A stretch of DNA of 49,804 nt from Dehalococcoidia bacterium (GCA_014859205.1 JACUUR010000003.1:1-49804), one strand, 5' to 3'. Shown: positions 3,731 through 14,683, counted from the first letter of the stretch. Program-made: numbers and translations. The notes: generated by a model not told the origin, from the sequence alone.

Positions 3731-3751
3731 ATATGCGGATATTCGCATATA
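3730..3751. promoter_or_regulatory. putative ArsR operator palindrome
   Basis: TATATGCGGATATTCGCATATA, a 22-bp near-perfect inverted repeat over the predicted transcription start just upstream of arsR; a partial copy TGCGAATAT lies at 3671-3679. Confidence 0.75.
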
Positions 3752-3777
3752 AGGATGCAGCGGTTCATCAGCCGACA

Positions 3778-4146
3778 ATGAAAGATCTGGTGAAGGCCTT
3801 CAAGGCCCTGTCCGACGAGACCAGGATCAGAATCCTGAAGGTCTTGCTAGAGCGGGAGTGCTGCGTTTGTGAAATCATGCAGGCGCTTGACATCTCCCAG
3901 TCTCGTACGTCACGCAATCTAAGCGTACTTGAGAACGCCGGATTCGTGAGGTCCAGAAGGAATGGCCTGTGGAAGGTCTACTCGATCAATCAACAAGAGA
4001 TGGGCAATCATGCCAACCGGCTGACTGAATGGCTGCGGGGCGCCGCCATTGACGAGCAGGTCGTACGGCAGGACAGAGAGAGGTTGAGTCATGCGGTGCG
4101 GGTGGGACCGAAAGCGGTGCCCGGGCGACGAAATCCCAAGCATTGA
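3778..4146 (+). CDS. arsR: ArsR/SmtB family metalloid-sensing repressor
   Basis: FKALSDETRIRIL...ECCVCEI...SQSRTSRNL winged HTH with vicinal cysteines; start placed at ATG 3778 because ATG 3733 lies inside the operator. Confidence 0.9.
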   Translation: MKDLVKAFKALSDETRIRILKVLLERECCVCEIMQALDISQSRTSRNLSVLENAGFVRSRRNGLWKVYSINQQEMGNHANRLTEWLRGAAIDEQVVRQDRERLSHAVRVGPKAVPGRRNPKH

Positions 4147-4159
4147 TTGAGAGTTCAGA

Positions 4160-5266
4160 ATGGGCATTGCGGTCGGAATTCTCAGGGGCGGGCTGGCCGA
4201 GTTGGCCGAGTACTTGCTGGCCCACTTCGTGACCTGTCTGATTCCAGCCTTCTTCATAGCCGGAGGCATTAGCACCTTTCTCTCGCAGGCAGCAATCCTG
4301 AAGTACTTCGGCCACGGGGCCAATAGATGGCTCTCATATGGCGTAGCCTCGGTGTCCGGTACTGTCCTCAGCGTGTGTTCCTGCACGGTGCTGCCGCTCT
4401 TTGCCGGCATATACCGTGTAGGCGCCGGGCTTGGTCCGGCAGTCGCCTTCCTCTATTCCGGACCGGCTATAAACGTGCTGGCGATAGTGTGGACCGCGAG
4501 GATTCTGGGCTTCGACCTGGGAGTTGCCCGGGCAGTCGGTGCGGTGGTCTTTGCTGTGGTGATCGGAATGGTCATGGCCAGGGTGTTCTGCAAAGAGGAG
4601 AGAGAACAGGCGAATGCAGACCTGGCCATCGCTGCAGCAACCGGCGGCATCAAGGGATGGCAGTCGGCGATTCTTCTGTTTAGTCTGATAGGGATCCTCG
4701 TCTCGCTGGCCTGGGGGATCAGGATAGTACCGGAGAAGAACATAGAGACGTGGGCGCTTATTACAGGAGTGGACGTTGCGGTGAACCCCGTCGCGTCCTC
4801 GTTCGCCGGGCTGTTCCTGGTGGCGCTTGCCGTTCTGCTTAAACACTGGCTCACACGTGAGGACATCATGGAGTGGCTCAGAGCAACCTGGTCCTTCTTC
4901 AAACTCGTCGTGCCCTGGCTGCTGGGAGGAATCTTTGTCGCGGGGATGATAGGGGTGGTGCTGCCCAGTGAATGGGTAGTGCGCATTGTGGGCGGAAACA
5001 GCCTGCCCTCGAATTTCATCGCTTCGTTTACCGGCATGCTGTTTTACTTCGCCACGTTGACTGAGGTTCCCATCCTCAGGACGTTCATGGATGCGGGGAT
5101 GGGCAAGGGCCCCGCCCTGGCACTGCTGCTGGCAGGGCCGGCACTGAGCCTCCCCAGCATACTGGTGCTGCGGCGCGTCATGGGAACCAGAAAGACGGTT
5201 GTCTACGCAGGTCTGTCCGTGGTCATGGCCACGACTACCGGATTCATATTCGGGCTTTTGAGATAA
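4160..5266 (+). CDS. ArsP-like (DUF318) permease
   Basis: Polytopic membrane protein with CLIPAFFIAG, VCSCTVLPLF, LYSGPAINVLA, YFATLTEVP, LLAGPALSLP motifs; follows arsR. Confidence 0.88.
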   Translation: MGIAVGILRGGLAELAEYLLAHFVTCLIPAFFIAGGISTFLSQAAILKYFGHGANRWLSYGVASVSGTVLSVCSCTVLPLFAGIYRVGAGLGPAVAFLYSGPAINVLAIVWTARILGFDLGVARAVGAVVFAVVIGMVMARVFCKEEREQANADLAIAAATGGIKGWQSAILLFSLIGILVSLAWGIRIVPEKNIETWALITGVDVAVNPVASSFAGLFLVALAVLLKHWLTREDIMEWLRATWSFFKLVVPWLLGGIFVAGMIGVVLPSEWVVRIVGGNSLPSNFIASFTGMLFYFATLTEVPILRTFMDAGMGKGPALALLLAGPALSLPSILVLRRVMGTRKTVVYAGLSVVMATTTGFIFGLLR

Positions 5267-6084: not shown

Positions 6085-6531
6085 ATGGCAGAAGCGAAAC
6101 ACGCCGAAGAAGGGATGAGGACACACGAGAACGTGATATTCTCGTGCTACGGTGGCTTCTCGAACACAGGCATAACCAGCGCGCTGGCCTGCCTCGAGGC
6201 CGTAAAGGAATTGGGTCTGGAAAAGGCGGCAATAGGGTGTCTGGCGGCGCTACCCCTGGGGATCAAGCCTGTGATAGGTAAGGCGGCGGCGGCCCAGCGG
6301 ATCGTCACAGTGGACGGCTGTCCCTCTGAGTGCGCCCGGAAAACGGTCGAGCAGGCCAACCTCTCGCTTACCACGAGCATCGTGCTGACAAGGGATATAG
6401 ACATGAAGAAGAAGCCGCTGCATGAGGACATCGGCCAGGGTGTCAGGGGAGTTATGGAGTACATTTCGGACGACGAAGTGAAGAGGGCAAAAGAACTGAT
6501 AATAAAGGCCATATCGGATGGTGCCAACTAG
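6085..6531 (+). CDS. DGC-domain putative zinc-binding protein
   Basis: IFSCYGGFSNTG, GCLAAL, VTVDGCPSECARK motifs; AAGGAGG RBS. Confidence 0.88.
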   Translation: MAEAKHAEEGMRTHENVIFSCYGGFSNTGITSALACLEAVKELGLEKAAIGCLAALPLGIKPVIGKAAAAQRIVTVDGCPSECARKTVEQANLSLTTSIVLTRDIDMKKKPLHEDIGQGVRGVMEYISDDEVKRAKELIIKAISDGAN

Positions 6532-6628
6532 CGGTGATCGATGGGCGCTAGACTACAGTGTCGCCCATGAAAGGCGCGATGGTATCTGTTTCGCCCCCCG
6601 GAGTCAGTTCAGTGGTAAGGAAACGACT

Positions 6629-7465
6629 ATGCTAAAGGTGAAACCGGCGGATGGCTATCCTCCCGAGGAGGGTCGCTATGTGAGGGGTAACGATTATTCC
6701 CCCGTAGCAGTCTGCGTAATCCTGGACACCTTTGACTTCAAGATACCGCCCGAACTGAACGGGCTTGTGATGGCAGGAGCGGACACCGGTGCCGCCCTCT
6801 CAGGCATGCTGCAGACAGAGAACATAGGCATGGAGAAGATGATCTGCAATATCGCGGCTAATCCGAATATTCGCTACATCGTGCTGTGTGGAAGGGAGTC
6901 AGCCGGGCATCTCCCGGGGCAATCGCTGATGGCGCTCAAGCTCAACGGTGTCGATCAGGGAAGGCGTATCATTGGCACCGAAGCTCCAACGCCACATCTC
7001 CACAATATTCCTGCGCAGTTGATAGACAGGTTCCGGAGTCAGATCATAGACATCGTCGACCTGCTATGTCAGCCTGGCGAAAGCGACACCGGACTCCCGG
7101 GACTAGATCCTAAGATGATAGAAAAGGCAGTCTGGAGCTGCTATCAGGAAGAGCCGGTACGATTTCTACAGTATAGCCTCTATGACTTGGGGGCATACCC
7201 GGAGCCGCCGATACTCCATAAGCTGGCATCAAAGCTGGACCAGCCCCAGCAGGACATTATGCAGCCGGGCAAATCGAATCTGAACATGGGGCTCATGCTC
7301 AATAAATTCCTGCCCAGGACGAACTGCAAAGAGTGTGGACGGCGAACCTGCCTGGCTTTTGCCATCGACCTGGGCAAGGGTAAGGCCCAGCTTCAGGAAT
7401 GCCCTGTGCTGGATCAGCCCGAGTTTAAGGCTGACAGGGAGGCTTTGACCAAGGTCCTAGATTAA
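6629..7465 (+). CDS. MtrA-like corrinoid protein fused to a C-terminal putative Fe-S (CxxCxxxxC...C) domain
   Basis: KVKPADGYPPEEGRY, TENIGMEKMICNIAANPNIRYIVLCGRESAGHLPGQSL match the MtrA family including the cobalt-ligand His; tail LPRTNCKECGRRTCLAFA...CP. Start placed at ATG 6629 (AAGGA RBS). Confidence 0.85.
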   Translation: MLKVKPADGYPPEEGRYVRGNDYSPVAVCVILDTFDFKIPPELNGLVMAGADTGAALSGMLQTENIGMEKMICNIAANPNIRYIVLCGRESAGHLPGQSLMALKLNGVDQGRRIIGTEAPTPHLHNIPAQLIDRFRSQIIDIVDLLCQPGESDTGLPGLDPKMIEKAVWSCYQEEPVRFLQYSLYDLGAYPEPPILHKLASKLDQPQQDIMQPGKSNLNMGLMLNKFLPRTNCKECGRRTCLAFAIDLGKGKAQLQECPVLDQPEFKADREALTKVLD

Positions 7466-7577
7466 GCTACGATGACACCTTTGAATTGGGACTGCGTTTG
7501 GACAGCCAGTTGCGTCAACTGGTTCCCGGTGACGCAACGGGTTCAACATGGGCCCCGATCATGCAGAGGGGGCAAAG

Positions 7578-8630
7578 ATGGCTGAGAAAGAACGAAAGCT
7601 CGGTATCTGGGGAAAGTTCCTGACCTTATGGGTAGCGCTGTGTATCGTTGCCGGGGTCGGACTGGGATATCTGTTCCCGGGGCTCTCGGAGTTGCTGGCC
7701 CGACTGGAGGTGCGGGGCATCTCCATACCTATCGCCATATTGCTGTTTGCCATGATCTACCCGATCATGGTGCAGATATGCTGGGAGGAGATCCGAAATG
7801 CATTTCGTTCACCCAAACCGATCGGCCTTACCCTGTTTGCCAATTGGGCCGTCAAGCCTTTCACCATGGCTCTGTTCGCCTGGCTATTCCTGAGCGTGAT
7901 CTTCGGCCGCTACCTTACACCTGAGCAGGTCGAGCAGTACCGCGCCGGAACGATACTGCTCGGCGTCGCCCCGTGTACGGCGATGGTGCTGGTCTGGAGC
8001 TACCTGGCCAGGGGCAACATGGGGCATACGCTGGTGATGACCGCCATAAACTCGCTGAGCATGGTCGTGCTGTACGCGCCTCTGGCCGCTCTGCTCCTGG
8101 GCATCTCTGGCGTGACGGTTCCCTGGGATACCATAGCCCTTTCTGTGGCGTTCTACATCGTGACTCCACTTGTAGCCGGCTTTCTAACGCGCAGGTGGGC
8201 GATCCGACGGAAAGGGCTGGAGTGGTGCGAGTGCACCCTGGAGCCCAACCTGGGGAAGGTCTCTATAATCGCGCTGCTGGTAACACTGGTTGTCCTGTTC
8301 ATGTACCAGGGCCACATCATCGTGGAGCTACCAGCCGTGGTGGGCATGATTACCGTGGCTATACTGGTGAACATTCTGGTGGTCTTCGGCATTACCTATC
8401 TGGCGGCCCGTGTCATGAAACTCAGATACGCCGACGCAATTCCGGCCGCCATCATCGCGGGCAGCAACCACTTCGAGGTGGCGATCGCCGTGGCTACGAC
8501 CCTGTTTGGAGTGGCCTCGGGAGCAGCCCTGGCTACAGTGGTAGGCGTGTTAACTGAGGTGCCAATAATGCTTTCTCTGGTGGCGATTTCGCTGTTGACC
8601 AGAAAGACCTTTCCTAAGCATCTGCGCTAG
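7578..8630 (+). CDS. acr3: Acr3 family arsenite efflux transporter
   Basis: LTLWVALCI, MIYPIM, NWAVKPFTM, APCTAMVLVW, SNHFEVAIAVA, VGVLTEVPIM motifs. Confidence 0.95.
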   Translation: MAEKERKLGIWGKFLTLWVALCIVAGVGLGYLFPGLSELLARLEVRGISIPIAILLFAMIYPIMVQICWEEIRNAFRSPKPIGLTLFANWAVKPFTMALFAWLFLSVIFGRYLTPEQVEQYRAGTILLGVAPCTAMVLVWSYLARGNMGHTLVMTAINSLSMVVLYAPLAALLLGISGVTVPWDTIALSVAFYIVTPLVAGFLTRRWAIRRKGLEWCECTLEPNLGKVSIIALLVTLVVLFMYQGHIIVELPAVVGMITVAILVNILVVFGITYLAARVMKLRYADAIPAAIIAGSNHFEVAIAVATTLFGVASGAALATVVGVLTEVPIMLSLVAISLLTRKTFPKHLR

Positions 8631-8686: not shown

Positions 8687-8715
8687 TTGCCTGATCATGA
8701 CGTGAGTGCTAGAAT
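8687..8715 (+). promoter_or_regulatory. putative promoter of the Ig/PKD-like protein cluster
   Basis: TTGCCT-17 nt-TAGAAT with TGn extension, 60 nt upstream of the 8775 start. Confidence 0.55.
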
Positions 8716-8774: not shown

Positions 8775-9440
8775 ATGAAGAGAATATTTAGCGTAGCGGT
8801 GATCATTGGGGCAGCGGCCATACTGCTACTCGCCTCAGCGTGCACGGGCTCCCCGTTTCCGACTATCAGTAGCCTGACATCAGACGCAACCTGGACGGCT
8901 CCCGGCGATAGTCTGCGGGTTAGTTGTGTAGCCTCGGTGTCCGGCGGCGGCGAACTGAGTTACTCGTGGTCGGCCAGCCGCGGTACGGTAACCGGCTCCG
9001 GCCCCGTGGTTGATTGGACCGCTCCCCAGCAGGTTGGCATGTACGACATCACCGTTGTGGTTACCAGTGCTCAAGGCAGAACAGAGACGCAGTCGCTGAG
9101 CCTGATAGTATCCAATGGCCCTCCGCCGAGTATTCAGGGCCTGGTCGTAACCGCCAGAGACCACACGTACCTGCGGACAACTGCTGCCGGGTACCAAGCC
9201 GCGAGGACATACGAGTACGATATTGAGTGCATGGCTTCGGCCACACAGGGCGAGATTACCTACGAGTGGTCCCATGATGGAGGCGAGATCGACGGAGACG
9301 GCTCAGCCGTTATCTGGACAGCTCCGGATAGGGACGGCCGGGTCACAGTCACCGTCAAGGTCTTCGATGGTGAAGGTAACTGGGCAAGTAAGAGCCTGGT
9401 CTTTCAGGTGGTAGACTGCGAGGCATGTGTGGTCTGGTGA
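8775..9440 (+). CDS. lipoprotein with two Ig/PKD-like repeats and C-terminal CxxC tail (paralog 1; possible Sec read-through to 9512)
   Basis: AGGAG RBS; lipobox LASAC; repeats with Y-W...G...V-WTAP...Y-ITV-V; ends VVDCEACVVW-UGA. Confidence 0.85.
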   Translation: MKRIFSVAVIIGAAAILLLASACTGSPFPTISSLTSDATWTAPGDSLRVSCVASVSGGGELSYSWSASRGTVTGSGPVVDWTAPQQVGMYDITVVVTSAQGRTETQSLSLIVSNGPPPSIQGLVVTARDHTYLRTTAAGYQAARTYEYDIECMASATQGEITYEWSHDGGEIDGDGSAVIWTAPDRDGRVTVTVKVFDGEGNWASKSLVFQVVDCEACVVW

Positions 9441-9451
9441 TATGGAGAGAA

Positions 9452-9469
9452 GAGTGACGGTGTACGCTC
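9452..9469 (+). promoter_or_regulatory. putative bacterial SECIS hairpin (paralog 1)
   Basis: GAGTGAC-GGT-GTACGCTC stem-loop with one bulge and one G-U, starting 11 nt after UGA 9438-9440; GGT at +19 to +21. Confidence 0.45.
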
Positions 9470-9520
9470 GGGATGCATGATCAAGACGGTAATGAGGGTG
9501 GATCTGCAGTAGGTGGAAGC

Positions 9521-10474
9521 ATGAAGACAAAGACTCATCTGATCATCGCGGCGATGGTAGCTCTGGCGGTGACTATGCTCATATTGTCCTGCACTGAGGA
9601 GGCTGACCAGCCGCTCGACCCCGATCCACCCGTGATCCAAAGTCTGGAGGCCGAATCGACCAGTGTTTTCCACTCCGAGAGCATACAGATTACGTGCACT
9701 GTTTCAGCCCCCGACGGCGCTGAACTAACCTATGAATGGTGGGCCAGTGGAGGTGAGGTAGACGGACAGGGAGCCACGGTCGTCTGGACGGCTCCGGACT
9801 CGGAAGGCTCCTATGATGTCGGTGTGATAGTGACCGATGGGCATGGTGGTGGCGCCATGCAGCACGTGACCATAGAGGTGATGGCCAACAGGCCGCCTGT
9901 AATCAGCAGCATGACGGCCAGTGCGGACTGGGCTTTTCCCGGTGGGGGCGTGACGATTACCTGCCACGCTGAGGACCCGGACGGTCATGCCATAACCTAC
10001 GAGTGGTCGGCGAGCGCAGGGCATATCGAAGGGACGGGGCGAGAGGTGACGTGGACCGCGCCCGACCCATTGGGCGAATACAGCGTAACCGTTGTGGTGA
10101 GCGACGAGTACGGAGGCCTGGACACGAGGACACTCCAGATCAGCGTAATGCCGGAGCAGCCACCGATCATTGAAGCTCTACTTGTCACAGCCAACCACCG
10201 CTGGCTGAGAACACGCTCCTTTGGATATCAGGTTGGGTACGCTCAAGAGTACAGCATCGAGTGTGTTGCCTCCCATCCCGAGGGCTCTGAGCTACACTAC
10301 GAATGGACATGCAACGGTGGCGAGATAGTGGAGACCTCAGAGGACGGTGCCACGGTCACCTGGGTGGCTCCCAACACATCGGTGTACGTTACGGTCACGG
10401 TTACGGTGTCCGATATCGGCGGCAATACTGCCACTAGAAGCGTAGATTTGGAGGTGATCCCCTGCTGGACCTGA
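9521..10474 (+). CDS. lipoprotein with three Ig/PKD-like repeats; probable selenoprotein ending C-W-T-U (end 10477 if UGA is Sec)
   Basis: Hydrophobic leader ending ILSC; three PP(V/I)I...WTAP/WVAP repeats; ends VIPCWT-TGA-TAG followed by a SECIS-like hairpin. Confidence 0.88.
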   Translation: MKTKTHLIIAAMVALAVTMLILSCTEEADQPLDPDPPVIQSLEAESTSVFHSESIQITCTVSAPDGAELTYEWWASGGEVDGQGATVVWTAPDSEGSYDVGVIVTDGHGGGAMQHVTIEVMANRPPVISSMTASADWAFPGGGVTITCHAEDPDGHAITYEWSASAGHIEGTGREVTWTAPDPLGEYSVTVVVSDEYGGLDTRTLQISVMPEQPPIIEALLVTANHRWLRTRSFGYQVGYAQEYSIECVASHPEGSELHYEWTCNGGEIVETSEDGATVTWVAPNTSVYVTVTVTVSDIGGNTATRSVDLEVIPCWT

Positions 10475-10485
10475 TAGAGGATAAG

Positions 10486-10504
10486 CAGCCCTGGTTCAGG
10501 GCTG
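10486..10504 (+). promoter_or_regulatory. putative bacterial SECIS hairpin (paralog 2)
   Basis: CAGCCCT-GGTTC-AGGGCTG, 11 nt after in-frame UGA 10472-10474; no U-tract. Confidence 0.7.
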
Positions 10505-10548
10505 AGTCTTCGCGGGAGCCGGCGTGGCTATTGATCTGAGGTGAGATC

Positions 10549-11499
10549 ATGCACAGGAAGAAGCTGATAGTCGTCGCGGTGATCATGGCGATAGCCGTGC
10601 CTCTCTCGATTGTGGCAGTGCTGGCGGCTGCCAGCCCTCCTCCGGTCATTGAGAGCCTGGAGGCTGACCCCGAGAGGGTTTTTCCTTCGGGGAGCACGCA
10701 GATTGTGTGTACGGTGTCAGGCCCTGATGGTGCTTCACTAAGCTATGAATGGTGGGCAAGCGAGGGCGAAATAGACGGAGACGGTGCGATGGTTACCTGG
10801 ACGGCGCCCGGTGTTGAGAAGATCTGCCACATCAGTGTCACAGTCAGCGATGGACGCGGCCGCCAGGATACCGACACCCTAGTCATCGTCGCGAAACACA
10901 ATCAGCCGCCGGTAGTTCACAGCCTGACTGCCGAGCCGAACTGGACTACTCCCTCGGGCAGCCTCCGGTTGATATGCGATGCTGAAGACCCTGATGGTCA
11001 TACCCTCAGTTACCAGTGGTCGGCAGAGGCCGGGCATTTCGAGGGCACGGGAGCTGAGGTTACCTGGCTGGCTCCCGAACAGACAGGCATATATGAGATC
11101 ACAGTTGTCGTGAGCGATGATTACGGCGGCTCGGCGGCGGACGCGCTATATGTCAGCGTAATGCGGGGTCAGCCACCAGTCGTCGAAGCTCTGCTTGTCA
11201 CAGCGACACATAAGTACCTAAGGCCATCGGCCTCCTCCGAGAGGTATGAGGTGGGCGAAGGGAAGACGTTTGCCATCGAATGCATCGCTTCACATCCAGA
11301 TGGTGTCCAGCTAGCGTATGAGTGGGAGTACGATGCCGGTGAGATAACAGGTGCCTCGGAGGATGAGTCTTCGATCACGTGGACCGCCCCGAGTCGGGGC
11401 GTGACAGCCACAGTCACAGTGACAACATCCGATCCCTCAGGCAACATGGCTCGCAGGAGCGTGAGCCTGGAGGTGGTGTCCTGTTCGAGATTCGGCTGA
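10549..11499 (+). CDS. exported protein with three Ig/PKD-like repeats; probable selenoprotein ending C-S-R-F-G-U (end 11502 if UGA is Sec)
   Basis: GAGGTG RBS, N-terminal signal peptide, collinear paralog of the 9521 gene; ends VVSCSRFG-TGA-TAG followed by the same hairpin. Confidence 0.88.
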   Translation: MHRKKLIVVAVIMAIAVPLSIVAVLAAASPPPVIESLEADPERVFPSGSTQIVCTVSGPDGASLSYEWWASEGEIDGDGAMVTWTAPGVEKICHISVTVSDGRGRQDTDTLVIVAKHNQPPVVHSLTAEPNWTTPSGSLRLICDAEDPDGHTLSYQWSAEAGHFEGTGAEVTWLAPEQTGIYEITVVVSDDYGGSAADALYVSVMRGQPPVVEALLVTATHKYLRPSASSERYEVGEGKTFAIECIASHPDGVQLAYEWEYDAGEITGASEDESSITWTAPSRGVTATVTVTTSDPSGNMARRSVSLEVVSCSRFG

Positions 11500-11510
11500 T
11501 AGAAGACAGA

Positions 11511-11528
11511 CAGCCCTGGTTCAGGGCT
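11511..11528 (+). promoter_or_regulatory. putative bacterial SECIS hairpin (paralog 3)
   Basis: CAGCCCTGGTTCAGGGCT, identical over 18 nt to 10486-10503 and again 11 nt after UGA (11497-11499). Confidence 0.7.
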
Positions 11529-11620
11529 CAATCCTCCGGAAAGCGACCTTCCTTATGCAGGATGCTCCGTCTCGACACAGGAGTTTGCACAGAGAGCACA
11601 TTCTAGGTTAGTATCTATCG

Positions 11621-12103
11621 ATGAGCAACTGGTTCGTCGGATCGCTCAGAGAGGCCTTCCGGGACCGACACAGGAAGTATGTGACCGTATCGCTGCTGGT
11701 GGCGGGGATAACGTTGATAGTGATCGGGCAGCAGGCGGCAGGGCGGGGTCCCGCGATGCCGCAGGAGCCCCCAGACATCGAAGCCGTGCTGGTTACCAAG
11801 GACCGTCACGGACACTGTTATCTCAGAACGGACGAGTCGGGCTATAAGGTCGGCAGGGGCCAGAAATACGACATCGAGTGTGTCGTCTCAGACACAGGCT
11901 TCGAGTTGTTCTATGAATGGTTATGCGAGGACGGCGAGATTGCTGCTCAGGATGGATCCATGATAACCTGGGTCGCCCCTAATACATCCACGCACGTTAC
12001 GGTGACGGTCACAGTCTCTGATGCAGCCGGCCATGCAGTCAGCGAAGACATAGCGATCAACGTAGTCTCTTGCTCGGTCTGTACGTTTGGCAGATGCCCA
12101 TAG
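11621..12103 (+). CDS. membrane-anchored single Ig/PKD-like domain protein with Cys-rich tail (paralog 4, all-Cys form)
   Basis: N-terminal TM; domain homologous to the last repeat of paralogs 1-3 (IEAVLVT...CYLR...YDIEC...TWVAPNTS); ends VVSCSVCTFGRCP-TAG. Confidence 0.85.
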   Translation: MSNWFVGSLREAFRDRHRKYVTVSLLVAGITLIVIGQQAAGRGPAMPQEPPDIEAVLVTKDRHGHCYLRTDESGYKVGRGQKYDIECVVSDTGFELFYEWLCEDGEIAAQDGSMITWVAPNTSTHVTVTVTVSDAAGHAVSEDIAINVVSCSVCTFGRCP

Positions 12104-12216
12104 ATAGATGGAAGACATAGCTGAGAGAATACCGCTCCTCGTGGGCACTTGCGTTGCGGGTGCATCACCAGGAGAGAACCCCAGAAAGGGGGAGCTTTCT
12201 CAGGCGAGACTTGTCA

Positions 12217-13410
12217 ATGCATAAGAGGTTGATCGGCTTTCTCGGGAACACATTTCGGGACCGTTTCAAGAGATATCTCATCACATCTCTTATAATCGTG
12301 GGGGTCGTTTTAGCGGTCACAGGCAATGGTTCGCCCGCGCCCATTGACGGTGAGGGTTTCGAGGTCCATTTCTTCTATGTCACCGGCTGCCCTGGCTGTG
12401 ACGCGCAGAAACCGTTTAACACTCAGTTGGCTGCTCGGTACCCTATGATCGCTATTATCGAGCATAATGCCATTGACGAGGCCCCCCTGTTGCGACAGAT
12501 GCTTGACGATCGTGGGATCGATGAATCGCCACCGGTCCCGGTAACAATCTTCGACAACCAGGTCTTCATGGGCTGGGTTTCGGAGGAAACAACCGGTGCG
12601 GAGATTGAGGATGCCCTACGGCAATGCCTGGACGGGGAGTGTCCACCGCCGACGGGCAGGGATCCCGAGGAAGGAATCGACATTCCGATCTTCGGGCGAA
12701 TCATATTCGCCGATTACTCGCTGGCGGCACTCGCCGTGATCCTGGGTATTGTAGACGGTTTCAATCCCTGTGCCCTCTGGGTACTTCTCTATCTTATATC
12801 ACTGGTAGCAACGCTGAGAGATAAGAAGAGAATCTGGCTGATCGTCGGCTCGTTTGTGCTGGCTTCCGGCGTCATATACTTCCTGTTGATGACGGCGTGG
12901 CTCAACGTCTTCCTGCTTATCGGCTTTGTCCGCCCGGTGATGGTCGTCATCGGCCTGGTGGCCCTGGGTGGAGGAATACTGCAGATTAAGGAGTCAATCC
13001 AGTCAAAGGGAGAAATCGTCTGTGAGGTCACCAGCCAGGAGTCGCAGCAGAAGACAATGGCCAAAATGCAGCGAATAGTATCCAGGCCGGTCACCATCGC
13101 CACCATACTGGGGATTATCGCTCTGGCCTTCACGGTGAACTCCATCGAGTTCGTCTGTTCAGCGGCGATTCCGGCCGTCTTCACCCAGGTGCTGGCCTTG
13201 AGCAATCTCACCACTGTCCAATACTACGGCTACATCCTGCTATACGTGTTCTTCTTCATCCTTGACAATCTGATCATCTTCGGCGGGGCTGCATTCGCCA
13301 TGACATCCAGCATGGGAGTCAAGTATGCGAAGTATGCCCGGCCGATCGGGGCCGTCATACTGATATTGCTGGGCGTCCTGCTCCTCTTCTTCCCGGGCTG
13401 GCTGCGTTAG
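12217..13410 (+). CDS. thioredoxin/glutaredoxin-like CxxC domain fused to a CcdA/DsbD-like multi-TM domain
   Basis: N-terminal TM, FFYVTGCPGC, PVPVT cis-Pro region, then about six TMs with DGFNPCALWVL and VNSIEFVCSAAIP cysteines. Confidence 0.82.
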   Translation: MHKRLIGFLGNTFRDRFKRYLITSLIIVGVVLAVTGNGSPAPIDGEGFEVHFFYVTGCPGCDAQKPFNTQLAARYPMIAIIEHNAIDEAPLLRQMLDDRGIDESPPVPVTIFDNQVFMGWVSEETTGAEIEDALRQCLDGECPPPTGRDPEEGIDIPIFGRIIFADYSLAALAVILGIVDGFNPCALWVLLYLISLVATLRDKKRIWLIVGSFVLASGVIYFLLMTAWLNVFLLIGFVRPVMVVIGLVALGGGILQIKESIQSKGEIVCEVTSQESQQKTMAKMQRIVSRPVTIATILGIIALAFTVNSIEFVCSAAIPAVFTQVLALSNLTTVQYYGYILLYVFFFILDNLIIFGGAAFAMTSSMGVKYAKYARPIGAVILILLGVLLLFFPGWLR

Positions 13411-14222: not shown

Positions 14223-14683
14223 TTGCGTCTCCTCCCTTTTCTGCTCTCAAGCCAGCCAACTCTGACCGGCGTTCTGTCATCGGATCCGGGCAGATATGGC
14301 TTGATGTCCAGCAGAGGAGTGCCGTCTATCGCGTCCAGGCCCTTCACCCTCAGGATATGCCTGTCCCTTGATAGCAGTTCCGCAACGGTCAACCCCAGCG
14401 GACAGGGTCTTCGAGGCGATCGAGTAGCAAAGACGCCGTGCAGACGATCCTCCCCCGGTGGTTTCACGAGCAGCTTGTAGTCCTGTAGCTTATGAAACCA
14501 GAATATGACCACGATGTGGGAGAACCCCTCGACGTCCTGCAGCCCCGCTTCGTACTCCTCAAACACCTCAATCTCACAGATAACACCGCTGTCGTCGTTC
14601 TGAATAGGCACCTGCCCGACCTCCCTGTAGGGAGAATGGATTATGCCTATGGGCCTTAACTCCAGCGTATCCGTATATGTCAT
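14219..14683 (-). CDS. tsaA: tRNA (N6-threonylcarbamoyladenosine(37)-N6)-methyltransferase TrmO/TsaA family
   Basis: LRPIGIIHSPY, GVFATRSPRRPCPLGL, GLDAIDGTPLLDIKPY. Confidence 0.92.
   Translation of the reverse strand: MTYTDTLELRPIGIIHSPYREVGQVPIQNDDSGVICEIEVFEEYEAGLQDVEGFSHIVVIFWFHKLQDYKLLVKPPGEDRLHGVFATRSPRRPCPLGLTVAELLSRDRHILRVKGLDAIDGTPLLDIKPYLPGSDDRTPVRVGWLESRKGRRRN

What the first reader, a model, noticed from the sequence alone, without database searches (positions are those of the whole stretch)
8775..12103. Tandem family of exported Ig/PKD-like proteins that appear to end in selenocysteine (UGA plus positionally conserved SECIS)
Seen in sequence: the four paralogs end VVDCEACVVW-UGA, VIPCWT-UGA-UAG, VVSCSRFG-UGA-UAG and VVSCSVCTFGRCP-UAG. 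After paralogs 2 and 3 the identical 18-nt hairpin CAGCCCTGGTTCAGGGCT begins exactly 11 nt after the UGA (10486 and 11511), although the spacers (TAGAGGATAAG vs TAGAAGACAGA) and the preceding codons have diverged in sequence and number. Paralog 1 has a different-sequence hairpin at the same offset, so all three put GGT at +19 to +21. Paralog 4 ends in UAG, shows no such hairpin and has a Cys near the equivalent position. Established: the E. coli fdhF minimal SECIS lies 11 nt after UGA with G/U in the apical loop, and Sec/Cys interchange among homologs is the standard selenoprotein signature. Inference: these are surface proteins presenting a terminal CxxU or CxxxxU redox or metal(loid)-binding tail on an Ig-like stalk, with Sec as the very last residue. 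I do not recognise this as a described selenoprotein family, and standard gene callers would miss it.
Basis: partly seen in the sequence, partly recalled or inferred. Interest (0 to 1): 0.95.

Follow-up and report, generated by a model that had tools for sequence, protein, structure and literature searches.

The report
Surface proteins ending in selenocysteine
Two of four neighbouring membrane-anchored, Ig-like surface proteins of an uncultured Dehalococcoidia bacterium most likely carry the rare amino acid selenocysteine as their very last residue, which gene callers read as a plain stop.

Summary
Paralogs p2 (9521-10477) and p3 (10549-11502) end UGA-UAG. A 7-bp GC-rich hairpin with a GUU loop starts 12 nt after the UGA. 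The genome has tRNA-Sec, selD, selB and selA, and three bona fide selenoprotein genes whose SECIS geometry is similar. I surveyed 198 distinct C-terminal ends of this family from 52 genomes of the genus and from metagenomes. Thirteen have the single-Cys tail; all 13 use UGA, are followed directly by UAG/UAA, and carry the hairpin at an invariant spacing with compensatory stem changes. In homologs ending ..FGC-stop, the UGA aligns with the Cys codon. The DNA signature occurs in 6 of 52 genomes, all among the 8 with SelB. Related SelB/SelA-negative genomes lack it. I read p2 and p3 as a new selenoprotein family with C-terminal Sec (confidence about 0.8). The layout matches the published SaoC and KCU-star cases, without homology to them. 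The Sec claim for p1 fails: its type ends in UGA in Sec-less genomes too, with no conserved hairpin or second stop. A conserved thioredoxin-fold membrane protein lies downstream and ACR3 upstream, which suggests a recycled extracytoplasmic thiol/selenol tail. That function is inference only.

The parts
8775..9440 (+). p1: two-domain PKD/Ig-like exported protein, tail CEACVVW, ordinary TGA stop (not Sec)
   Evidence: This tail type is 20 of 20 TGA, with 0 of 20 hairpins and 0 of 20 following stops, and it occurs in selA/selB-negative genomes.
9521..10477 (+). p2: three-domain PKD/Ig-like protein, tail C-W-T-[UGA]-UAG = CxxU; candidate terminal selenocysteine
10472..10474 (+). UGA of p2, read as Sec; the true stop is UAG 10475-10477
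10486..10504 (+). SECIS-like hairpin of p2: 8 bp including the C-G extension, GUU loop 10494-10496, -13.0 kcal/mol
10549..11502 (+). p3: three-domain PKD/Ig-like protein, tail C-S-R-F-G-[UGA]-UAG = CxxxxU; candidate terminal selenocysteine
11497..11499 (+). UGA of p3, read as Sec; the true stop is UAG 11500-11502
   Evidence: It aligns with the TGT/TGC Cys codon of ..FGC-stop homologs.
11512..11528 (+). SECIS-like hairpin of p3: 7 bp, GUU loop 11519-11521, G-U at +20/+21 after the UGA, -11.0 kcal/mol
11621..12103 (+). p4: single last-domain paralog with an N-terminal membrane anchor, all-Cys tail CSVCTFGRCP, TAG stop, no hairpin
12217..13410 (+). Conserved downstream partner gene ('TrxMem'): N-terminal membrane helix, thioredoxin-fold domain with CPGC, then a multi-helix membrane domain with invariant Cys residues
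   Evidence: Found next to the tail genes in 38 of 63 genus loci. Residues 41-142 match thioredoxins at Z 11.3, rmsd 1.8 A over 85 residues. Invariant Cys listed. One source names homologs thiol-disulfide isomerase/thioredoxin.
7548..8630 (+). ACR3 arsenite efflux permease directly upstream (context)
   Evidence: TIGR00832, 357.7 bits against a cut-off of 282.8. ACR3 lies beside the tail genes in 8 of 63 short-flank genus loci.

Best explanation
p2 and p3 are members of an undescribed bacterial selenoprotein family. Each is a membrane-anchored, extracytoplasmic stalk of three PKD/Ig-like domains, and its last residue is selenocysteine. The ribosome reaches UGA. SelB with Sec-tRNA(Sec) is recruited by a 7-bp GC-rich hairpin with a GUU loop that starts 12 nt downstream, in the untranslated spacer. 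Sec is inserted, and translation ends at the next codon (UAG/UAA). If Sec insertion fails, release at UGA gives a protein one residue shorter. The tail then reads CxxU (p2) or CxxxxU (p3), in place of the CxxCxFGC three-Cys tail of Sec-less relatives. What is shown by computation: the Sec machinery, the SECIS geometry, covariation in the stem, Cys/UGA alignment, and co-occurrence with selA/selB. What is inferred: that the Cys/Sec tail is a reactive thiol-selenol end that forms a selenenylsulfide or binds a soft metal(loid), and that the conserved downstream thioredoxin-fold membrane protein keeps it reduced. The neighbourhood (ArsR, ArsP, ACR3) hints at arsenic or another metalloid as the ligand. 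p1 and p4 are Cys-only paralogs with ordinary stops.
For: (1) Machinery. tRNA-Sec, selD (itself with one in-frame TGA), selB and selA are clustered on contig C17. Two molybdopterin oxidoreductase genes each have one in-frame TGA.
(2) Geometry. The three bona fide SECIS of this genome have 5-9-bp GC-rich upper stems starting 12-14 nt after the UGA, with loops GGA, GUCU and GGG. p2 and p3 have a 7-bp stem starting at 12 nt and a GUU loop. Their G-U sits at +20/+21, as in the C17 formate-dehydrogenase-like gene.
(3) All 13 distinct hairpins meet the published bacterial SECIS model: loop of 3-9 nt, stem of 4-16 bp, G in the first two loop positions, 16-37 nt from the UGA, MFE <= -7.5 (review PMC13188914, passages read). 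Here the loops are 3-5 nt, the stems 6-8 bp, the distance 18-19 nt, and the MFE -9.1 to -13.0.
(4) Comparative survey of 198 distinct C-terminal ends. The single-Cys tails (12 CxxFG plus p2) are 13 of 13 UGA and 13 of 13 followed at once by UAG or UAA. Eleven of 13 have a perfect stem of at least 7 bp and 2 of 13 a 6-bp stem. Among the other 185 ends, 3 have a following stop, and 1 of the 183 that could be scored has a strong hairpin.
(5) The 12-nt spacing has no indel in 13 sequences, although the spacer sequence has diverged. Two of 7 stem pairs show compensatory changes (CG 7/UA 6; AU 7, CG 2, GC 2). 96.7% of cells are paired. The covariation score is 0.291 against 0.128 in shuffles (0 of 500 reach it), and the slid controls collapse.
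(6) MAFFT puts the UGA in the column of the TGT/TGC Cys codon of ..FGC-stop homologs, and the UAG/UAA under their TAG.
(7) Co-occurrence. The DNA signature is in 6 of 52 genus genomes (8 sites, all of them these genes, 0 control hits). SelB passes its cut-off in 8 of 52 genomes, and those 8 include all 6. selA is found in 5 of 5 other signature genomes and in 0 of 5 tested others. In a tree of the neighbouring TrxMem gene, signature loci are interleaved with SelB-negative loci that lack the gene. The clade has 100/100 support, and the label needs at least 3 changes.
(8) Base rate. A generic SECIS-like hairpin follows 16 of 406 TGA, 10 of 345 TAG and 4 of 119 TAA long-ORF stops. In the narrow geometry, the only TGA cases are p2 and p3.
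(9) Precedent. SaoC proteins end C-UGA-UAG with a 7-bp stem and a GGU loop, and are accepted as terminal-Sec proteins (bioRxiv 10.1101/2022.07.06.499078, passages read).
Against: There is no experimental evidence of selenium incorporation. Homology cannot continue past the UGA because it is the last codon, so the usual 'alignment runs through U' criterion cannot be applied.
UGA invariance alone is weak. Within this family other tail classes also keep one stop codon: CxxCxxW is 20 of 20 TGA with no hairpin, and CxxCxFGC is 40 of 41 TAG.
The UAG after the UGA is homologous to the TAG of a conserved intergenic motif seen in all classes. Its presence in the ancestor therefore needs no selection; only its persistence, as both TAG and TAA in a decayed spacer, does.
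The last-domain tree makes the 13 Sec-type genes one clade (FastTree, no support values read). The Sec form therefore arose once, and the counts across relatives are not independent.
'SelB-negative' rests on incomplete MAGs (57-99% complete). G062 has a SelB fragment but no selA hit. G003 has a sub-threshold SelB-like piece.
Rfam has no matching family.
The Sec tail has one Cys fewer than the Cys tails and is two residues shorter, so it is not a simple one-for-one replacement.
Confidence: 0.8

Rival explanations
1. UGA is an ordinary stop. A TGY-to-TGA nonsense change removed the last Cys of an ..FGC-TAG ancestor and left the old TAG behind. The GC hairpin is an unrelated RNA element of the intergenic spacer, for example a 3'-end stabiliser or a processing site between cistrons, that arose in this paralog lineage.
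For: The UGA-UAG pair aligns with the TGY-TAG of Cys-type homologs, so a single nonsense mutation explains its origin. All Sec-type genes form one clade. Other tail classes also conserve their stop codon without any Sec. The whole intergenic region is conserved across classes, so it carries other signals. There are no wet-lab data.
Against: This does not explain why the gene is found only in genomes with selB/selA (6 of 8 against 0 of 44; selA) and is missing from interleaved Sec-less relatives. It does not explain the strict 12-nt spacing to the UGA without indels in a diverged spacer, or the invariant G-U loop at +20/+21 shared with a bona fide SECIS of the same genome. It does not explain why the second stop persists as TAG or TAA in 13 of 13 while the rest of the motif decayed. 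Cys-type homologs have no such hairpin at the same place (0 of 40).
Confidence: 0.15
2. The hairpin is an intrinsic transcription terminator or a dispersed REP-like repeat.
For: It is a GC-rich stem-loop just after a stop codon. The consensus scan flags the p3 hairpin as terminator-like on the minus strand.
Against: There is no U-run after the hairpin on the coding strand, and neither hairpin is flagged on the + strand. No plausible minus-strand gene ends there. The 18-mer occurs only at these two sites in the genome. The relaxed motif gives 5 genomic hits, of which only these 2 follow a TGA.
Confidence: 0.02
3. p1 (CEACVVW-UGA) is also a selenoprotein, and uses a different weak hairpin.
For: This tail type uses UGA in 20 of 20 cases. 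In the tail register, that UGA falls where the terminal Cys of ..FGC homologs lies (by eye). G000 p1 has a 5-bp hairpin with GGT at +19 to +21.
Against: The same tail type with UGA occurs in genomes that lack selB and selA (G006, G041, G042). Zero of 20 have a strong hairpin and 0 of 20 a following stop. Read-through would add 23 residues in G000 and 14 in G006, and these are unrelated in protein sequence.
Confidence: 0.03

Closest known systems
SaoC (Cys-Cys-COOH selenoprotein, NF040734; Haft & Gwadz, bioRxiv 10.1101/2022.07.06.499078, passages read)
   Same: An exported (mostly lipoprotein) protein whose last residue is Cys or Sec. The Sec forms end UGA-UAG with a perfect 7-bp stem and a G-first triloop a few nt downstream, in the untranslated spacer. 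It is encoded beside transporters (ArsP family) and a thioredoxin-like protein. Gene callers miss the terminal Sec.
   Different: No sequence relationship: NF040734 was not among the matches for p1-p4 at E <= 0.1. SaoC is a protein of about 158 residues of unknown fold with a CU/CC end. Here a 2-3-domain PKD stalk carries CxxU or CxxxxU. The taxa differ (Clostridia, spirochaetes and deltaproteobacteria against Dehalococcoidia). The neighbourhood differs too: no ABC transporter and no MerB-like SaoL was seen in the window.
KCU-star / DUF466 selenoproteins (NF033934) of Campylobacter and Helicobacter
   Same: Sec is the C-terminal residue next to a Cys-containing motif, and the gene lies beside a transporter (as described).
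   Different: These are small cytoplasmic DUF466 proteins ending K-C-U. There is no homology (not among the matches) and no Ig-like domains.
Mammalian thioredoxin reductase C-terminal GCUG tail (recalled, not from a call)
   Same: A flexible C-terminal Cys...Sec tail that forms a selenenylsulfide and acts as a mobile redox arm recycled by a dithiol centre. This is the working model I propose for the tail with the thioredoxin-fold neighbour.
   Different: That is a eukaryotic SECIS system, with Sec penultimate rather than last. The tail is part of a flavoenzyme, not an extracytoplasmic Ig stalk. The analogy is functional only and untested here.
E. coli fdhF-type bacterial SECIS
   Same: A hairpin directly after the UGA, with a G-U in the apical loop about 20 nt from the UGA. 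All criteria of the published consensus model are met. The closest match in the same genome is the C17 formate-dehydrogenase-like gene.
   Different: It lies wholly in untranslated RNA after the real stop. No bulged U or lower stem is conserved. No Rfam family matched.

Membership tests
Bacterial SelB/SECIS-dependent selenoprotein | Genome encodes tRNA-Sec, SelA, SelB and SelD | tested here: met
   tRNA-SeC on C17 at 14523-14617. selB 337.7 bits, 356.2 with its C-terminal piece. selA 550.1 bits. selD 384.9 bits with 1 in-frame TGA. All pass their cut-offs.
Bacterial SelB/SECIS-dependent selenoprotein | The UGA aligns with Cys in homologs that lack Sec | tested here: met
   The DNA alignment A6 puts the TGA of 8 Sec-type genes in the column of the TGT/TGC of 6 ..FGC-stop genes. 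There are 41 distinct ..CxxCxFGC ends in the survey.
Bacterial SelB/SECIS-dependent selenoprotein | 100% UGA at the putative Sec site | tested here: met
   13 of 13 distinct Sec-type ends. By itself this is weak, because other tail classes also keep one stop codon.
Bacterial SelB/SECIS-dependent selenoprotein | bSECIS consensus: 3-9-nt loop, 4-16-bp stem, G in the first two loop positions, 16-37 nt from the UGA, MFE <= -7.5 kcal/mol | tested here: met
   13 of 13: loop GUU (11) or AGUUG (2), stem 6-8 bp, 18-19 nt from the UGA, MFE -9.1 to -13.0. Criteria taken from PMC13188914. bSECISearch itself was not run.
Bacterial SelB/SECIS-dependent selenoprotein | Protein homology continues beyond the UGA | not testable with these tools
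   The UGA is the last sense codon, and the next codon is a stop in 13 of 13. The same exemption was made for SaoC.
Bacterial SelB/SECIS-dependent selenoprotein | Selenium is incorporated at the site | not testable with these tools
   Needs 75Se labelling or mass spectrometry.
SaoC (NF040734) / KCU-star (NF033934) | Match to the family HMM | tested here: not met
   The NCBIfam scan of p1-p4 at E <= 0.1 lists neither family.
PKD / bacterial Ig-like domain proteins | Pfam PKD (PF00801) or Big_9 (PF17963) above the gathering score; Ig-like beta sandwich | tested here: met
   PF00801: p1 28.5, p2 52.2, p3 50.7 bits (cut-off 23.5); p4 20.5, below it. Big_9: p2 67.1, p3 62.7 bits. The AF2 model of the last domain has pLDDT 91.9 and is all-beta. 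Foldseek finds PKD and Ig domains.
Thioredoxin-fold oxidoreductase (for the downstream gene 12217-13410) | Thioredoxin fold with CxxC at the start of helix 1 | tested here: met
   Residues 41-142 match thioredoxins at Z 11.3, rmsd 1.8 A over 85 residues. C59/C62 are invariant in 35 sequences. Strand 49-55 is followed by helix 60-75.
DsbD/CcdA-type thiol-disulfide transporter (for the membrane part of the downstream gene) | Family HMM match, or a fold match of the membrane domain with paired Cys in membrane helices | tested here: inconclusive
   No Pfam or NCBIfam match. The membrane part was modelled at pLDDT about 40-65 and was not covered by the fold search. Invariant C186 (GFNPCA), C270 and C315 exist. 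The resemblance to CcdA motifs is recalled, not tested.
Intrinsic (rho-independent) terminator | GC-rich hairpin followed by a U-run on the transcribed strand | tested here: not met
   Neither hairpin is reported on the + strand.

The most novel reading that the evidence does not exclude
The Cys/Sec tails are the working ends of a previously unknown extracytoplasmic thiol-selenol relay in Dehalococcoidia. A membrane-anchored Ig-like stalk presents a terminal selenolate as a swinging arm. The arm captures or reduces a soft metalloid (arsenic, antimony or selenium species) or another extracellular oxidant just outside the ACR3 exporter. It is re-reduced by the dedicated thioredoxin-fold membrane protein encoded downstream. 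In lineages that lose the Sec machinery, the selenium version is lost together with it.
Probability: 0.2. Interest if true: 0.8.

Novelty: new member of a known kind. Interest (0 to 1): 0.62.

Why it matters
If confirmed, this adds a selenoprotein family that current annotation pipelines cannot see, because a terminal Sec looks like a normal stop. According to the SaoC authors, NCBI's pipeline cannot predict C-terminal Sec. It places selenium on the outside of the cell, at the tip of an Ig-like stalk, in an abundant uncultured subsurface group. It also offers an unusually clean natural test case. The Sec form and the truncated form differ by one residue. The SECIS is a minimal 17-nt hairpin outside the coding region. 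Close relatives supply matched Cys forms and Sec-less genomes. The conserved pairing with a thioredoxin-fold membrane protein and ACR3 gives a testable handle on what extracytoplasmic Cys-rich tails do in these organisms.

Tried and rejected
A brute-force scan for all in-frame TGA codons followed by any hairpin was too noisy to list selenoproteins. I replaced it with family searches that report in-frame stops. FlpD/MvhD genes had no TGA.

The Rfam search of 9300-12300 at E <= 10 gave only two chance-level hits (psbNH, sR5) and no SECIS family.

In the 80 loci I examined, only 3 were family genes (G054, G013, G017). The rest had short or unrelated upstream frames, and 11 of 80 had complementary variable positions, about the chance rate. 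One small zinc-ribbon-like ORF in a Chloroflexota MAG (L200) ends TGA-TAA with a hairpin, but I treat it as chance.

Complex prediction of the thioredoxin domain with a p4-type last domain gave no verdict (score 0.29, below the mark of 0.32). It is neither for nor against binding.

The AF2 model of the whole downstream membrane protein was poor outside the thioredoxin domain (mean pLDDT 59.7), so its membrane fold stays unassigned. The sequence search of solved structures gave only E = 0.1 to DsbF. I could not measure Cys-Cys distances in the last-domain model, because no coordinates are returned.

The look-up of sequencing runs listed no RNA holder, and no reads were laid.

Literature. The terms 'selenocysteine' + 'PKD domain' + 'selenoprotein' returned 0 papers. 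'selenoprotein' + SECIS + Dehalococcoidia returned 2. 'selenoprotein' + Chloroflexota + SelB returned 4, none describing this family by listing or abstract. The 2026 review table (PMC13188914) contains none of the words PKD, Ig-like, immunoglobulin, lipoprotein or CxxxxU, nor the four PKD/Big Pfam accessions. Haft & Tolstoy 2025 and the journal version of Haft & Gwadz 2023 are not held. Supplements are closed, so their family lists could still hold this family.

I considered UGA reassignment and rejected it: TGA is the commonest stop of long ORFs (409 of 880).

Full report
**What is there.** The window is contig C69 of a 1.67-Mb, 134-contig MAG, 95.7% complete. Close homologs of a neighbouring gene are labelled Dehalococcoidia bacterium, as are the public records that hold orthologs of the finding. 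Positions 8775-12103 hold four tandem + strand genes. p1 has two PKD/Ig-like domains, p2 and p3 have three, and p4 has one (Pfam PKD, Big_9 and K319L-like PKD). All four begin with a hydrophobic N-terminal segment, which I read by eye as a lipobox-like signal in p1 and p2 and a signal anchor in p3 and p4. The 18-mer sits at 10486 and 11511 and nowhere else in the genome.

**Does the organism use selenocysteine?** Yes. tRNA-Sec, selD, selB and selA lie together on contig C17, and all pass their curated cut-offs. selD itself has an in-frame TGA. Two molybdopterin oxidoreductase genes (C17 and C24) each have one in-frame TGA, at the ..HCARL-U-H.. site.

These three bona fide SECIS give an internal standard:
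- selD: UGA, 12 nt, then an 8-bp GC stem with a GGA loop.
- C17 oxidoreductase: UGA, 14 nt, then a 5-bp stem with a GUCU loop.
- C24 oxidoreductase: UGA, 14 nt, then a 9-bp stem with a GGG loop.
- p2 and p3: UGA, 12 nt, then a 7-bp stem with a GUU loop.

In p2 and p3 the loop G-U falls at +20/+21 after the UGA, the same positions as in the C17 gene. From memory, these correspond to the SelB-contacting G23/U24 of E. coli fdhF. All criteria of the published bacterial SECIS consensus (PMC13188914, passages read) are met by all 13 distinct examples found. Their MFE is -9.1 to -13.0 kcal/mol.

**Is it more than chance in this genome?** I examined 870 long-ORF stops. A generic SECIS-like hairpin follows 16 of 406 TGA, 10 of 345 TAG and 4 of 119 TAA stops, so such hairpins are not generally enriched after TGA. 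In the narrow geometry only three stops qualify: p2, p3 and one TAG. A stop directly after a TGA stop occurs in 28 of 409 long ORFs.

**Comparative evidence.** The last domain has homologs in 46 of 52 genomes of the genus. I fetched 63 genus loci and 60 metagenome loci. From them I read 218 C-terminal ends, 198 of them distinct.

| Tail class | Distinct ends | Stop codon | Next codon a stop | Strong hairpin |
|---|---|---|---|---|
| Single Cys: C-x-x-F-G, plus p2's C-W-T | 12 + 1 | 13 TGA | 13 of 13 (TAG or TAA) | 11 of 13 perfect stem of 7 bp or more; 2 of 13 6-bp stem |
| CxxCxFGC | 41 | 40 TAG, 1 TAA | 0 | 0 of 40 |
| CxxCxFG | 49 | 26 TAA, 12 TGA, 11 TAG | 0 | 0 of 49 |
| CxxCxFx(x)Cx | 37 | 20 TAG, 11 TAA, 6 TGA | 1 | 1 of 36 |
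| CxxCxxW (p1 type) | 20 | 20 TGA | 0 | 0 of 20 |
| Other | 38 | 23 TAG, 9 TAA, 6 TGA | 2 | 0 of 38 |

A MAFFT alignment of DNA across the stop puts the TGA of the single-Cys class in the column of the TGT/TGC Cys codon of the ..FGC class. The following TAR falls under their TAG. So UGA replaces the codon of a terminal Cys.

In the 13 distinct single-Cys sequences, the 12-nt spacer has diverged at most positions but has no indel. The GUU is invariant. Two of the 7 stem pairs change on both sides (C-G/U-A; A-U/C-G/G-C). 96.7% of cells pair. The covariation score exceeds all 500 shuffles, and sliding the partner by one column drops pairing to 54-58%.

**Link to the Sec trait.** SelB passes its cut-off in only 8 of 52 genus genomes. 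An exact scan of all 52 genomes for the UGA-UAR-spacer-hairpin signature finds 8 sites in 6 genomes: G000 twice, G013, G017, G019 twice, G024 and G054. Every site is one of these genes, the control pattern gives 0 hits, and all six genomes are among the eight with SelB. selA is found in 5 of 5 of the other signature genomes. It is found in 0 of 5 of G006, G009, G041, G042 and G062.

These counts are not independent, because the genomes are related, so I looked at trees. In an ML tree of the adjacent thioredoxin-fold gene (50 loci with enough sequence), all signature loci fall in one 100/100 clade of ten rows. That clade also holds four SelB-negative genomes without the gene. G013 (signature) is sister to G042 (none) at 100/99. 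A signature metagenome contig is sister to G041 (none) at 100/99. The label needs at least 3 changes. In a quick tree of the last domains with the tails removed, the 13 Sec-type genes form one clade, with p2 sister to p3. Their neighbour clade includes genes ending in a terminal Cys (FastTree, supports not inspected).

Together this says the Sec-type paralog arose once and is retained only where the Sec machinery is retained. That is the usual fate of a selenoprotein gene.

**What speaks against, or is weaker than it looks.** UGA invariance is not special in this family, since the W-ending and FGC-ending classes keep their stops just as strictly. The TAG after the UGA descends from the TAG of a conserved intergenic motif present after all classes. 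Only its survival as TAG or TAA, in a spacer whose other motif positions decayed, argues for selection as a stop. The MAGs are incomplete. G062 has only a SelB fragment at a contig end and no selA hit, and G003 has a sub-threshold SelB-like piece. G043 has SelB but no member of the family at all. No Rfam family matches. Nothing here measures selenium.

**p1 and p4.** The p1 type (CxxCxxW-UGA) occurs with the same UGA in genomes lacking selB and selA. It has no conserved hairpin and no conserved downstream frame. Reading through in G000 and G006 gives unrelated peptides of 23 and 14 residues. I therefore read p1's UGA as a stop. Why this class is 20 of 20 UGA remains unexplained. p4 is a Cys-only form with a plain UAG.

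**How it probably works.** The decoding step follows from the anatomy: SelB-dependent insertion of Sec at the last sense codon, directed by a minimal hairpin in untranslated RNA, with termination one codon later. This layout is not new in principle. SaoC proteins end C-UGA-UAG with a 7-bp stem and a GGU loop, and KCU-star proteins end K-C-U (bioRxiv 10.1101/2022.07.06.499078, passages read).

The function is inference. The last domain is a plain Ig-like sandwich (pLDDT 91.9; PKD and Ig matches only), and the tail follows the final strand. A gene with no Pfam or NCBIfam family lies directly downstream of the tail genes in 38 of 63 short-flank genus loci. It encodes an N-terminal membrane helix and a domain that matches thioredoxins (Z 11.3, rmsd 1.8 A over 85 residues; invariant CxxC). 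A multi-helix membrane part follows, with three more invariant Cys. By the positive-inside rule (my reading), its thioredoxin domain and the PKD stalks face the same, outer side.

ACR3 lies upstream here and in 8 of 63 loci. ArsR and an ArsP-family permease lie a few kb upstream in the window. My working model is a reduced Cys/Sec tail that binds a soft metalloid or exchanges disulfides outside the membrane and is recycled by the thioredoxin-fold neighbour. The complex prediction gave no verdict (listed under Tried and rejected only).

**Novelty.** I found no description of a PKD or Ig-like selenoprotein (searches; review table checked). Two relevant papers and all supplements could not be read. 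The mechanism and the terminal-Sec layout are known, but the family, its extracytoplasmic Ig-stalk architecture and its neighbourhood appear new. I rate it a new member of a known kind, with interest 0.62.

Noticed in passing
window 9438-9440 and p1-type genes in L017, L019, L027, L029, L032, L034, L038, L046, L052, L054, L061, L070, L072, L082, L097-L102, L120, L149: All 20 distinct CxxCxxW-ending paralogs stop at TGA, although they have no hairpin and occur in Sec-less genomes. Likewise, 40 of 41 ..FGC ends stop at TAG. Stop-codon identity is conserved within tail classes for reasons unrelated to Sec, perhaps because the stop overlaps a conserved intergenic signal.
   Followed up: partly
downstream of most family genes, e.g. 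L022:2437-2496, L047:3503-3562; decayed copy at window 10475-10540 and 11500-11560: A conserved intergenic element of about 60 nt (core TAGGAGATAAAT, then ..TAGCTAAGGGCATAGTCTTCC.., then a small GCACA/TGTGC hairpin) follows nearly every paralog across the genus and the metagenome contigs. Its role (promoter, 5' leader or processing site) is unknown. The Sec-type hairpin replaces its first part.
   Followed up: partly
window 6085-7465: A DGC-domain gene (6085-6531) overlaps an MtrA-like protein with a C-terminal Fe-S domain of the corrinoid/Fe-S type (6518-7465). This pair lies directly before ACR3 and downstream of ArsR (3733-4146) and an ArsP-family permease (4160-5266). The MtrA-like gene recurs at 76% identity beside the tail genes in three other genomes (L050, L079, L084). 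It is possibly a corrinoid-dependent step in metalloid handling.
   Followed up: partly
window 11621-11740 versus 12217-12330; also L070:1473-1595: p4-type genes and the downstream thioredoxin-fold membrane protein share their N-terminal cytoplasmic and membrane-helix segment (..FRDR..K/RY..SL..). In tblastn, residues 1-41 of the membrane protein hit a second site in L070, at L070:1473-1595, with 63% identity and E = 3e-10; that site lies upstream of the locus's own copy of this gene, where I take the p4-type gene to begin. This suggests a shared anchoring or assembly module.
   Followed up: no
G000 contig C17:11327-19308 (outside the window): A compact Sec island holds a TGA-containing molybdopterin oxidoreductase (minus strand), tRNA-Sec, a Sec-containing selD, selB and selA. 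Only 8 of 52 genomes of the genus have SelB over its cut-off, so the Sec trait is patchy within one genus.
   Followed up: partly
window 10486-10503 and 11511-11528: The p2 and p3 hairpins are identical over 18 nt, while the flanking spacers and the last codons differ (p2 has a 6-nt deletion in the tail). p2 is sister to p3 in the last-domain tree. This points to a G000-specific duplication that created a CxxU variant of the CxxxxU tail.
   Followed up: partly
window 8687-8715: A promoter-like site (TTGCCT, 17 nt, TAGAAT, with an upstream TG) lies about 60 nt before the p1 start. It is at chance frequency for the region, so it is only a hint that p1 starts a transcription unit after ACR3.
   Followed up: no
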